Of a stretch of 64,000 bases of DNA, positions 62,010 through 64,000 are shown piece by piece. Every line of letters begins with the position of its first letter. The first letter of the stretch is position 1. The notes below the pieces were generated by a model, which searched no databases, was not told where the DNA came from, and worked only from the letters and a program-made list of their open reading frames with translations. Both the position numbers and the translations under genes were made by a program. Origin of the DNA: Flavobacteriales bacterium (GTDB taxonomy: Bacteria > Bacteroidota > Bacteroidia > Flavobacteriales > TMED113); the NCBI GenBank assembly GCA_002701365.1, contig NZUK01000002.1, positions 46,195-110,194 on the forward strand. The letters are read 5' to 3'.

Positions 62010-62080
62010 GGTCGGATGGCCGAGTGGCTAGGCAGTGGTCTGCAAAACCATCTACACCGGTTCGAATCCGGTTCCGACCT
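62010..62080 (+). tRNA. tRNA-Cys (anticodon GCA)
   Basis: Folded by hand. Perfect 7-bp acceptor GGTCGGA/TCCGACC, anticodon arm GTGGT-CTGCAAA-ACCAT, 4-nt variable loop and T arm ACCGG-TTCGAAT-CCGGT. The discriminator is T, the Cys identity element. 71 nt. Confidence 0.9.
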
Positions 62081-62339
62081 CAATTTTGGCATTTAAAGGG
62101 CCCTAAACCAGAACAATCGTTCCAGAAAAGTTATTAACAAAAAATTAACAATTTACATTGTTTTTTAATTAAAAATTCCTAAATTGAAGGCGTAGGATTA
62201 CCCCCATTTGTGTTCGTTCTCCTGCCATTTTGTTAATTAATTAGTTGGTTTTCAGACAATTGTCTTTATTGACCAGGTTTTATTTTTTAAAAAAAATATG
62301 AGAAATAATATACCCCAAAATATTAAAAATTTAGTAGCT

Positions 62340-64000
62340 ATGAAAAAAAATTTACTTTTCAAGAGAAGATTTTTCTCTCTTTTGCTGAGTCTATGCTTTT
62401 CCTTTGGATTTGCTCAGGACTTTGATTATACGATTACTGACGCTAACATGACAGTTCAGGTTGGTGCGGACGTGTGTGGTTTAGTTATGGAAACAGGAGA
62501 TCTTCTTGGAGCCTTTTATATTAATAGTGATGGTGATCTTGCCAACGCTGGTTATCTTCCATTTGAAGGAGATCAACTTGCAATTGCAGTATGGGCATCA
62601 GAATCAGGTCTTGGCAATGGTTTTGCTGCAGGTGATGATATTCAGTGGGCGATGTATGATCAGTCTTCAGGAGAAACAATACTTTTAGATTCCGAGATGA
62701 ATTCGGATCCTCCATTTTCAGCAACGTTTGTTGGCAATGGTTTTGGGCAGGTTCTGTCTCTTTCGGTTTCTACTGGAGATGATTGTGCTGATGACGATGC
62801 GGCTGTTTCTGCCTTTGGTGGTTGTGCAGGCGCTGTTGCAGCTCTTGGTTGTGATTTTGTTTTTGGAGGTGTGCCAATTGGAGAGTCTTGTCCAGTATCT
62901 TGTGATAGCTGTCCTTCTGACTGTGCCGATGATGATGCGGCTGTTTCTGCCTTTGGTGGTTGTGCAGGCGCTGTTGTAGCTCTTGGTTGTGACTTTGTTT
63001 TTGGAGGCGTGCCAATCGGAGATTCTTGTCCAGTAACTTGCGACAGTTGTGGTGGCGATTCAGAGCCTATTCTTGGCTGTACAAATGAGGATGCTGCTAA
63101 CTACGACGCTTCTGCTACAGACGATGACGGTTCTTGTATAGTGTTAGGCTGTACAGATAACTCGGCAGTCAATTACAATGCTGATGCAACAATTGATGAT
63201 GGCTCATGTGTAGTATTCGGATGTGCAGATTCTGCTGCAACTAATTATAATTCTGCTGCAACAATTGATGATGGTTCTTGTGAATATGCGCCAGCGGAAC
63301 CAGGACCTATGGATTACACAATCACTGACGCTAATATGACAGTTCAAGTTAGTGCTAATGTTGTATTTATGAACGGAGACACTCCAGCACCAATGGGGTC
63401 GTTGTTAGGAGCATATTATACAAATGATTCAGGCGAACTTGTTAATGCTGGCTATGAAGTTTTAGATGGTGATGATCAATATGCAATTGCAGTATGGGCG
63501 TCAGAATCAGGACTTGATAATGGTTTTGCCGCTGGCGAAGAAATTACTTGGGTGCTTCAAATAGGAAATGATTTATTTGTTGCTGATGCAGTAACAATGA
63601 ATTCTAGTCCCCCGTTTTCAGCAACATTCGTTGCAAATGGATTTGGGCAAATTCTTGATGCACAGTTTTCAGGAGAATTTACTGCAGACACACCAGGTTG
63701 TACAGATGACACAGCATGTAACTACGACGCTTCAGCTACTAGCGACGACGGTTCTTGTACTTATGCTTTATCTGGTTTAGATTGTAACGGAGACTGTTTA
63801 ACAGATGCCGATGGGGATGGCATTTGCGATGACGATGAAATTTTAGGCTGTACAGATGATACAGCATGTAACTATGATTCTTCAGCTACTGATGATGATG
63901 GTTCTTGTGAGGGTGCAACAACTGGCTATGACTGTAACAATAACTGTTTAACAGATACTGATGGAGATGGTATTTGTGATGAATTTGAAACAGCGGGTTG
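62340..64000 (+). CDS. Large modular secreted protein, N-terminal part (continues past the window; not in the ORF track)
   Basis: I translated the frame codon by codon from ATG 62340 (MKKNLLFKRRFFSLLLSLCFSFGFAQD signal) to nt 64000 and found no stop. An in-frame ATG at 62298 is an alternative start. Cys/Asp/Gly-rich repeat architecture. Confidence 0.85.
   Translation, partial: MKKNLLFKRRFFSLLLSLCFSFGFAQDFDYTITDANMTVQVGADVCGLVMETGDLLGAFYINSDGDLANAGYLPFEGDQLAIAVWASESGLGNGFAAGDDIQWAMYDQSSGETILLDSEMNSDPPFSATFVGNGFGQVLSLSVSTGDDCADDDAAVSAFGGCAGAVAALGCDFVFGGVPIGESCPVSCDSCPSDCADDDAAVSAFGGCAGAVVALGCDFVFGGVPIGDSCPVTCDSCGGDSEPILGCTNEDAANYDASATDDDGSCIVLGCTDNSAVNYNADATIDDGSCVVFGCADSAATNYNSAATIDDGSCEYAPAEPGPMDYTITDANMTVQVSANVVFMNGDTPAPMGSLLGAYYTNDSGELVNAGYEVLDGDDQYAIAVWASESGLDNGFAAGEEITWVLQIGNDLFVADAVTMNSSPPFSATFVANGFGQILDAQFSGEFTADTPGCTDDTACNYDASATSDDGSCTYALSGLDCNGDCLTDADGDGICDDDEILGCTDDTACNYDSSATDDDGSCEGATTGYDCNNNCLTDTDGDGICDEFETAG
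62781..63056 (+). repeat. Tandem duplication of a 138-nt (46-aa) six-cysteine module
   Basis: Copies lie at 62781..62918 and 62919..63056. By hand alignment there are 12 differences in the first 132 nt (9 synonymous) and 5 in the last 6 nt. Confidence 0.9.
63696..63995 (+). repeat. Tandem 150-nt (50-aa) higher-order repeat (Cys cassette + TSP3-like Asp-rich loop)
   Basis: Unit 63696..63845 (GCTDDTACNYDASATSDDGSC..DCNGDCLTDADGDGICDDDE) and unit 63846..63995 (GCTDDTACNYDSSATDDDGSC..DCNNNCLTDTDGDGICDEFE). The array probably continues beyond the window. Confidence 0.85.

What the first reader, a model, noticed from the sequence alone, without database searches (positions are those of the whole stretch)
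62781..63056. Two tandem 46-aa six-cysteine modules with ShK-toxin-like cysteine spacing and mostly synonymous divergence
Each copy reads D-C-ADDDAAVSAFGG-C-AGAV[AV]ALG-C-DFVFGGVPIG[ED]S-C-PV[ST]-C-DS-C. The spacing is C-x12-C-x8-C-x12-C-x3-C-x2-C. The C-x-D opening and the terminal C-x3-C-x2-C are the hallmarks of ShKT domains (sea-anemone ShK has 8,4,10,3,2). ShKT domains are overwhelmingly eukaryotic. Over the first 44 codons, the two DNA copies differ at 12 positions, of which I score 9 as synonymous. The duplication is therefore old enough to have diverged yet is held under purifying selection. It is not a recent slippage or an assembly artefact.
Basis: partly seen in the sequence, partly recalled or inferred. 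Interest (0 to 1): 0.6.

Follow-up and report, generated by a model that had tools for sequence, protein, structure and literature searches.

The report
ShKT-like six-cysteine pair in flavobacterial adhesin
Two adjacent 46-residue six-cysteine modules near the start of a giant secreted surface protein of a small marine flavobacterium belong to a real, uncatalogued domain family that faintly but reproducibly resembles the animal ShKT domain and looks like a disulfide-locked structural or binding knob, not a toxin.

Summary
Window 62781-62918 and 62919-63056 encode two 46-aa modules with spacing C-x12-C-x8-C-x12-C-x3-C-x2-C. They differ at 12 bases in 44 codons, 9 of them synonymous (dN/dS 0.09).

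They lie at residues 162-253 of a secreted protein of at least 1836 aa that carries SprB repeats and runs off the contig.

The module is a genuine family. It has 139 clusters among 1.84 billion representatives. It is in 14 of the 15 other genomes of the same GTDB family, is nearly missing from other Flavobacteriales, and also occurs in Marinimicrobia MAGs. Neither Pfam nor NCBIfam describes it.

Similarity to ShKT is real but below threshold:
- The window's own copies give no PF01549 hit.
- 24 of 85 relatives do (best E 0.0044), against 1 of 85 shuffles that keep the cysteines fixed.
- A subfamily profile finds only the solved ShKT peptides AcK1 and Acan1 (E 0.003-0.013). Column-shuffled controls find neither.

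The modules are very acidic and have no Lys or Arg, so a channel-blocking toxin role is unlikely.

The two copies in each protein are each other's closest relatives, yet the pair and its "CPS" linker are shared widely. That points to concerted evolution, not simply an old, independently diverging duplication.

Disulfide pattern and read support could not be tested.

The parts
62010..62081 (+). tRNA-Cys(GCA) directly upstream of the gene. It is context only and not part of the feature.
   Evidence: ARAGORN; Rfam tRNA, 63.1 bits
62340..64000 (+). 5' part of a giant secreted surface-protein gene. The ORF is open from 62298, but ATG 62340 is the likely start. It runs off the window and the contig (at least 1836 aa).
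   Evidence: ORF list. Full translation from the genome. The orthologue P0002 starts at the equivalent MKK. Pfam SprB repeats E 1.7e-44 and TSP3_bac E 4e-6.
62340..62414 (+). Predicted Sec signal peptide (MKKNLLFKRRFFSLLLSLCFSFGFA, followed by QD).
   Evidence: Read from the translation. The n-h-c layout is inferred; no signal-peptide predictor was run.
62418..62777 (+). N-terminal domain of about 120 aa, predicted to be a beta-sandwich, family unrecognised. It comes just before the Cys modules. A second copy lies at 63309-63678.
   Evidence: AF2 pLDDT of about 75-90 over this part, all-beta. Foldseek gives only weak transthyretin-like matches, E>=0.002. No Pfam hit.
62781..62918 (+). Six-cysteine module 1 (residues 162-207), ending in the 'PS' linker.
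   Evidence: Family profile 84.3 bits, E 1.2e-23 within the genome. AF2 pLDDT 92.5.
62919..63056 (+). Six-cysteine module 2 (residues 208-253), ending in 'GG'.
   Evidence: Family profile 78.2 bits, E 9.4e-22.
63075..63281 (+). Three 21-aa Cys-bracketed cassettes (GCTxxxAxNYxxxATxDDGSC) that follow the pair in all paralogues and orthologues.
   Evidence: Translations

Best explanation
The two modules are tandem copies of a small extracellular disulfide-rich domain. The domain forms a family that no curated library describes and is most likely a divergent, acidic branch of the ShKT (SXC, six-cysteine) fold. They sit near the N-terminal end of a giant SprB-repeat surface protein of a streamlined marine flavobacterium. 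Because such proteins are anchored to the cell by their C-terminal end, the N-terminal end is probably the tip furthest from the cell. Inferred mechanism: the protein is exported by Sec, and each module is oxidised in the periplasm to three disulfides, giving a compact two-helix knot. The protein then leaves through the type IX secretion system. The pair, together with the preceding beta-sandwich, forms a protease- and shear-resistant head or spacer that either contacts a ligand or holds the tip domain rigid. It is not a potassium-channel toxin. Purifying selection plus recurrent gene conversion or unequal crossing-over between the two copies keeps the pair alike. Shown: the family, its distribution, its architecture, selection on it, concerted evolution, and the sub-threshold ShKT similarity. 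Inferred: the disulfides, the fold class, the position at the tip, and the role.
For: Family. The profile of six own-genome modules finds 139 representative clusters at E<=1e-3 and 54 at E<=1e-10. C1-C6, D4, G23 and P38 are near-invariant across 85 diverse members. The module is in 15 of 16 genomes of the own GTDB family, counting G000, usually as tandem pairs or triplets.

Secreted giant protein. SprB repeats score E 1.7e-44. Relatives carry T9SS tails, PF18962.

ShKT link. 24 of 85 members hit PF01549, and no other family recurs. Cys-fixed shuffles give 1 of 85. Member alignments cover model positions 2-37 and 7-37 of 37. The subfamily profile A6 hits only AcK1 (E 0.0033) and Acan1 (E 0.0048) plus noise. 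An exact-spacing subset gives 0.0083 and 0.013. Column shuffles with the identical Cys framework give no ShKT hit. The alignment to AcK1 is gapless from C2 to C6, spacing 8/12/3/2, with a shared CP-x-[ST]-C-x-x-C. AcK1 and Acan1 are ShKT-domain peptides (PMC8239465).

Fold. The AF2 single-module model has pLDDT 92.5, with helices at 14-22 and 33-36.

Selection. The ratio is 0.09 for the window's pair.

Concerted evolution. Intra-protein copies are sisters, with support 90/93, 100/100 and 96/89. The 'CPS' linker is nevertheless conserved in all pairs.

Not a toxin. 96% of members have no Lys or Arg, and the mean is 7.9 acidic residues per module.
Against: The window's own modules give no PF01549 hit at E<=10. 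The best score I saw for a family member is 16.5 bits, against a cut-off of 20.9. Profiles A1 and A2 gave no significant PDB hit. The significant hits came from a subfamily that I picked by eye as looking more ShKT-like. Foldseek found no structural neighbour for the 46-aa model. The C1-C2 loop (11-13 residues) is longer than in ShK itself (8 residues). Disulfide connectivity was not tested because no coordinates are returned. The only clean natural variant lacking both C1 and C6 is one fragment, P0112. No experiment or expression data bear on the function. The C-terminal end, including any T9SS sorting domain, is missing because the contig ends.
Confidence: 0.55

Rival explanations
1. The module is an independent, lineage-specific cysteine-rich domain that only converges on ShKT-like spacing and on the C-P-x-[ST]-C-x-x-C ending. 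It is still a disulfide-stabilised extracellular spacer or binding module, but it is not homologous to ShKT.
For: No curated threshold is reached. Foldseek finds nothing. The C1-C2 loop is long and acidic, and the composition is Ala/Gly-rich and acidic, unlike typical basic ShKT peptides. No credible PF01549 domain was found in 401 Bacteroidota genomes to serve as a bridge.
Against: ShK is the only Pfam family hit repeatedly, and the hits vanish when non-Cys residues are shuffled. The only PDB hits of the subfamily profile are two ShKT peptides, aligned without gaps over C2-C6. These hits also vanish in framework-preserving column shuffles.
Confidence: 0.33
2. The cysteines bind a metal or an iron-sulfur cluster and do not form disulfides. 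C-x3-C-x2-C is also the radical-SAM cluster motif.
For: The terminal C-x3-C-x2-C motif. One column-shuffled control profile even picked up lipoyl synthase at E 1.2 through this motif.
Against: The protein has a signal peptide and an extracellular repeat architecture with SprB, TSP3 and, in relatives, T9SS tails. There is no radical-SAM or other cofactor-domain hit. An even number of six conserved Cys in a secreted domain of about 45 aa is typical of disulfide knots.
Confidence: 0.04
3. The duplication is an assembly artefact: an expansion of a single-copy module, or a chimera of strains.
For: All module-bearing genes in this MAG run into contig ends. A same-genus orthologue (L015/P0017) shows one hybrid module where the near-identical P0002 shows two. 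Reads could not be examined.
Against: The copies differ at 17 of 138 bases with a strongly synonymous bias. Three paralogous pairs exist in this genome. Pairs with the same linker occur in at least seven independent assemblies from ENA, JGI and Tara.
Confidence: 0.03

Closest known systems
ShKT / SXC six-cysteine domain (Pfam PF01549, SMART SM00254, PROSITE PS51670), in particular the nematode ShKT peptides AcK1 (PDB 2MD0) and Acan1 (PDB 6DRI)
   Same: Both have six Cys in about 40-46 residues. The C2-C6 spacing of 8/12/3/2 is identical to AcK1 in a gapless alignment. They share Asp two residues after C1, Gly just before C3, and C-P-x-[ST]-C-x-x-C at the end. Two helices are predicted. Both occur as tandem repeats inside larger secreted proteins. 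Profile hits are weak but specific.
   Different: The module is below the Pfam gathering score. Its C1-C2 loop is 11-13 residues and rich in Asp. It is extremely acidic and has no Lys or Arg, so it lacks the basic residue that ShK-type channel blockers use (dyad described in PMC8239465). It is bacterial (Flavobacteriales and Marinimicrobia), whereas ShKT is typically from animals or plants. Its disulfide pattern is untested.
SprB-type giant cell-surface adhesins of Bacteroidota secreted by the type IX secretion system
   Same: The host protein has a signal peptide, is very long, and carries SprB repeats (E 1.7e-44) and Ca-binding TSP3-like repeats. Relatives end in Por_Secre_tail.
   Different: The N-terminal head (an unrecognised beta-sandwich, then the six-Cys pair, then 21-aa Cys cassettes) is not part of described SprB proteins. 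The C-terminus of this copy was not assembled.
Secreted cysteine-rich repeat proteins (SCREPs): tandem disulfide-rich domains in venoms (PMC6262176, PMC9885460; abstracts only read)
   Same: Two homologous, independently folded disulfide-rich modules joined by a very short linker.
   Different: SCREPs are small free peptides of animals that act on receptors. Here the pair is embedded in a bacterial protein of more than 1800 aa, and there is no evidence of release.

Membership tests
ShKT domain (PF01549 / SM00254 / PS51670) | Score at or above the curated Pfam gathering threshold (20.9 bits) | tested here: not met
   The window's modules give no hit at E<=10. A six-frame search of the own genome gives none. 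The relatives whose scores I saw reach 16.4-16.5 bits, and the best E among 85 members is 0.0044.
ShKT domain (PF01549 / SM00254 / PS51670) | Six conserved Cys ending in C-x3-C-x2-C, with an Asp shortly after C1 | tested here: met
   The spacing is 12/8/12/3/2 in the window. 39 of 85 family members have exactly this spacing and 15 have 11/8/12/3/2. C2-C6 aligns without gaps to the ShKT peptide AcK1. D4 is more than 90% conserved. Caveat: the C1-C2 loop is longer than in ShK itself.
ShKT domain (PF01549 / SM00254 / PS51670) | Sequence similarity beyond the cysteine framework | tested here: inconclusive
   24 of 85 real members hit PF01549 against 1 of 85 Cys-fixed shuffles. Subfamily profiles hit only AcK1 and Acan1 at E 0.003-0.013, and framework-preserving column shuffles do not. 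The signal is specific but marginal, and it links to the window's copies only through other family members.
ShKT domain (PF01549 / SM00254 / PS51670) | Disulfide connectivity C1-C6, C2-C4, C3-C5 (PMC6409789) | not testable with these tools
   The model's coordinates are not returned. The only hint is one fragment (P0112) that lacks both C1 and C6. A second apparent case (P0148) is a spurious match in a membrane protein.
ShKT domain (PF01549 / SM00254 / PS51670) | Fold of two short, roughly perpendicular helices tied by the disulfides (PMC8239465) | tested here: inconclusive
   The AF2 model has pLDDT 92.5, with helix 14-22 starting at C2 and helix 33-36 just before C4. That is compatible. Foldseek returned no PDB match and only noise in BFVD.
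ShK-type potassium-channel-blocking toxins | Basic surface with a pore-plugging Lys next to a hydrophobic or aromatic residue (the functional dyad) | tested here: not met
   Both window modules have no Lys or Arg and 7 acidic residues. 96% of 85 members have no Lys or Arg.
SprB-repeat / T9SS surface adhesin (host protein) | SprB repeats and a C-terminal T9SS sorting domain | tested here: inconclusive
   SprB PF13573 scores E 1.7e-44. The sorting domain cannot be seen because the contig ends inside the gene. Module-bearing relatives P0010, P0012 and P0020 carry PF18962.

The most novel reading that the evidence does not exclude
The family is a true prokaryotic branch of the ShKT superfamily, confined to pelagic marine bacteria that use type IX secretion (one family of streamlined Flavobacteriales, plus Marinimicrobia). 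It would have been exchanged between these phyla, and either acquired from or donated to marine eukaryotes. The bacteria would use it at the tip of giant adhesins to bind eukaryotic (phytoplankton or animal) surfaces.
Probability: 0.12. Interest if true: 0.6.

Novelty: new variant of a known kind. Interest (0 to 1): 0.38.

Why it matters
This defines a compact, well-conserved extracellular domain that no curated library describes. It is a hallmark of the giant surface proteins of an uncultured, genome-streamlined family of ocean Flavobacteriales and of Marinimicrobia. Those proteins take up a large share of very small genomes, and their roles in particle or phytoplankton attachment are unknown. 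If the ShKT relationship holds, a fold known almost only from animal toxins and secreted proteins of animals and plants would extend to marine bacteria, in an acidic, non-toxin form. The locus is also a clean small example of concerted evolution of tandem protein modules under strong purifying selection.

Tried and rejected
- **PF01549 scans.** A direct scan of the window protein and of the pair found nothing. Six-frame searches found nothing in the own genome and only noise in 401 Bacteroidota genomes.
- **Other libraries.** NCBIfam gave no hit. PDB profile searches with A1 and A2 gave nothing or sub-threshold hits.
- **Foldseek.** The confident 46-aa model gave 0 PDB hits and only noise in BFVD. 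The 218-aa model gave only weak transthyretin-like beta-sandwich matches for the N-domain, and the Cys modules were poorly modelled there.
- **The search for related loci.** A3 worked.
- **Flawed control.** My first column-shuffle control (A7, A8) moved a gap column and changed C5-C6 from 2 to 3. I replaced it with exact-spacing controls.
- **Rejected evidence.** P0148 looked like a second variant lacking both C1 and C6. It is a polytopic membrane protein with a spurious match.
- **Literature.** Searches for bacterial ShKT domains found nothing relevant.
- **Rejected readings.** An iron-sulfur or radical-SAM reading of C-x3-C-x2-C was rejected on cellular location and architecture. A toxin reading was rejected on charge.

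Full report
**1. The observation**

The frame that opens at 62298 stays open to the end of the window. The likely start is ATG 62340, which matches the MKK start of the orthologue P0002. In the whole genome the frame continues to the end of contig C7, for at least 1836 residues.

Residues 162-207 (62781-62918) and 208-253 (62919-63056) are two 46-residue units with a 138-base period. The linkers (PS versus GG) add 5 more differences. Nei-Gojobori gives dS 0.35, dN 0.031 and a ratio of 0.09.

**2. The host protein**

The protein begins with a Sec-type signal peptide. After that come:
- a domain of about 120 residues with no family match, repeated at residues 338-460;
- the two Cys modules;
- three 21-residue Cys-bracketed cassettes;
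- units with bacterial TSP3-like Asp-rich loops;
- long arrays of SprB repeats (PF13573, E 1.7e-44).

The gene runs off the contig, so no C-terminal sorting domain is seen. Module-bearing relatives do end in the T9SS tail PF18962.

The genome is a 1.55 Mb, 87%-complete MAG. Its closest named relatives are uncultured marine "Flavobacteriales bacterium" MAGs from Tara Oceans. AF2 models the N-terminal domain as a beta-sandwich with moderate to high confidence. Foldseek gives only weak transthyretin-like matches for it.

**3. A real domain family**

The same genome carries two more tandem pairs in other giant secreted proteins, at C23:193-459 and C38:3216-3482.

A profile of the six own-genome modules, searched against 1.84 billion representative proteins, found 139 clusters at E<=1e-3 and 54 at E<=1e-10. 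All the sequences I inspected are multidomain secreted proteins from marine metagenomes.

Across 85 diverse members, C1-C6, Asp4, Ala18, Gly23 and Pro38 are invariant or more than 90% conserved. The consensus is xC-x-D-D-[DN]-x5-[FL]-G-G-C-x2-A-[VI]-x2-[LF]-G-C-D-F-x-[FW]-x-G-x-P-[IL]-[SG]-[ED]-x-C-P-x-[ST]-C-x2-C.

The module occurs once, twice, three times or four times per protein.

Distribution among GTDB species representatives:

| Group searched | Genomes with the module |
|---|---|
| Other genomes of the own family | 14 of 15 |
| One other Flavobacteriales family | 2 of 17 |
| 16 further Flavobacteriales families (up to 62 genomes each) | 0 |

The module also occurs in Candidatus Neomarinimicrobiota / Marinimicrobia MAGs and in a single-cell genome. 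That patchy, cross-phylum pattern among co-occurring pelagic bacteria suggests lateral spread. Pfam and NCBIfam have no model for it.

**4. Is it ShKT?**

*Direct test.* PF01549 does not hit the window's modules at E<=10. It finds nothing in the six frames of the own genome. It gives only noise in 401 Bacteroidota genomes. By the curated criterion, membership is not met.

*Indirect tests* give a specific but weak signal.

(a) Each of the 85 family members was scanned on its own. 24 hit PF01549 (best E 0.0044), and every other Pfam family was hit by at most one member. In two members the match covers model positions 2-37 and 7-37 of 37, that is, all or five of the six Cys, at 16.4-16.5 bits against a cut-off of 20.9. 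I then shuffled the non-Cys residues within each sequence and left the Cys in place. Only 1 of 85 shuffled sequences hit PF01549.

(b) In the PDB search with the whole-family profile A2, two of the only three matches at E<=10 were AcK1 (2MD0) and Acan1 (6DRI), at E of about 1. The top match was an unrelated ankyrin-repeat protein at E 0.71. The alignment to AcK1 is gapless from C2 to C6 (8/12/3/2) and shares the CP-x-T/S-C-x-x-C ending.

(c) A profile of the subfamily with an 11-residue first loop raised these hits to E 0.0033 and 0.0048, with nothing else below E 6. An 18-sequence subset with exactly uniform spacing gave 0.0083 and 0.013. Two column-shuffled versions with the identical cysteine framework and the same column conservation gave no ShKT hit.

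AcK1 and Acan1 are ShKT-domain peptides with the ShK disulfide framework (PMC8239465).

Caveats:
- I chose the subfamily by eye.
- Family members are not independent.
- The link to the window's own copies runs through other family members, although those links are strong (E down to 1e-22).

*Structure.* AF2 with 29 aligned modules gives pLDDT 92.5. It predicts a helix starting at C2 (14-22), a small hairpin, and a short helix just before C4 (33-36). This is compatible with the two-helix ShKT description. One natural fragment lacks both C1 and C6 (P0112). The same kind of paired loss is reported for bona fide ShKT domains (PMC6409789), but a single case is weak evidence.

I put true homology to ShKT at roughly one half.

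**5. What it is not**

Both window modules have no Lys or Arg and seven acidic residues. 96% of 85 members have no basic residue at all. ShK-type blockers depend on a basic Lys-containing dyad (PMC8239465), so a channel-blocking toxin role is not supported.

An iron-sulfur reading of C-x3-C-x2-C does not fit a signal-peptide-bearing extracellular repeat protein that has no cofactor-domain hits.

An assembly artefact is unlikely. The copies differ by 12% with a synonymous bias, and the same pair occurs in many independent assemblies.

**6. Evolution of the pair**

Every pair, in the three own-genome paralogues and in at least four other genomes, has module 1 ending in C-P-S and module 2 ending in C-G-G or C-D-x. 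The tandem arrangement is therefore shared and old.

Yet in a maximum-likelihood tree of the 132-base cores, the two copies within a protein are sisters. Support values (UFBoot/SH-aLRT) are 90/93 for own C7, 100/100 for C23 and 96/89 for C38. Within-pair dS (0.35, 0.07, 0.34) is well below between-paralogue dS (0.6-2.5). Derived residues are shared by both copies of a protein, for example DDDA, DDDS and DDDT at the same position in different orthologues.

This is the signature of concerted evolution by gene conversion or unequal crossing-over, acting on top of purifying selection.

A likely product of such an exchange is visible. The same-genus orthologue L015/P0017 has a single hybrid module, with a module-1-like start and a module-2-like end, where the otherwise near-identical P0002 has two. 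An assembly collapse cannot be excluded for that case.

**7. Likely role (inferred)**

In the Flavobacteriales proteins the modules lie within the first few hundred residues of proteins thousands of residues long. They follow directly after a beta-sandwich domain of a recurrent type. The same order, beta-sandwich then module(s), appears in the Marinimicrobia-type proteins.

T9SS cargo is anchored through its C-terminal end, so this N-terminal head would be furthest from the cell.

A three-disulfide knot is a plausible way to make a small, rigid, protease-resistant knob or spacer at the tip of a long adhesin in oxidising sea water. The conserved Asp cluster after C1 might bind Ca2+, like the neighbouring TSP3-type loops. 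None of this is tested.

**8. Verdict**

The module is a new, divergent, bacterial variant of a known kind of small disulfide-rich domain, in an ordinary kind of host protein (a giant flavobacterial adhesin). Interest is moderate.

Noticed in passing
window 62010-62081: A tRNA-Cys(GCA) gene lies about 260 bases upstream of this very cysteine-rich gene. This is probably coincidence.
   Followed up: partly
L015:3001-3132 (PAWM01000002.1, same genus) compared with P0002: The orthologue in a same-genus MAG has one hybrid module (module-1-like start, module-2-like end) where the near-identical JGI protein P0002 has two. This is either a copy-number polymorphism from unequal crossing-over or an assembly collapse.
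   Followed up: partly
G000 C23:1-1200 and C38:1-4957; window 62298-64000: All three module-bearing genes of this MAG run into contig ends. The repeat-rich giant surface-protein genes are where the assembly breaks, so their true number and length are underestimated.
   Followed up: no
window 62418-62777 and 63309-63678; C38 protein residues 193-310, 497-615, 905-1020, 1290-1400: A beta-sandwich domain of about 120 aa with no Pfam match (motif GD/S-x-[LI]-G-[AV]-F ... AIA[VA]W[GA]SE[SA]G ... NGF) recurs many times in these proteins. Its first copy in each protein comes directly before the six-Cys module(s), in both Flavobacteriales and Marinimicrobia-type proteins.
   Followed up: partly
G414:C31:1638-2054 and G415:C32:13910-14326 (same GTDB family): Three six-Cys modules in tandem, where the window has two. 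P0001 carries four (two pairs). Copy number is labile.
   Followed up: no
L017, L019, L022, L025, L026 (Neomarinimicrobiota / Marinimicrobia contigs): The same module, at 67-84% identity to the window's, occurs in a different phylum that shares the habitat and type IX secretion. It is not found in most Flavobacteriales families sampled. This suggests lateral transfer of the module or of whole adhesin heads.
   Followed up: partly
window 62298 versus 62340: The mechanical ORF starts at ATG 62298. The orthologue's N-terminus and the signal-peptide layout fit the second ATG, at 62340.
   Followed up: partly
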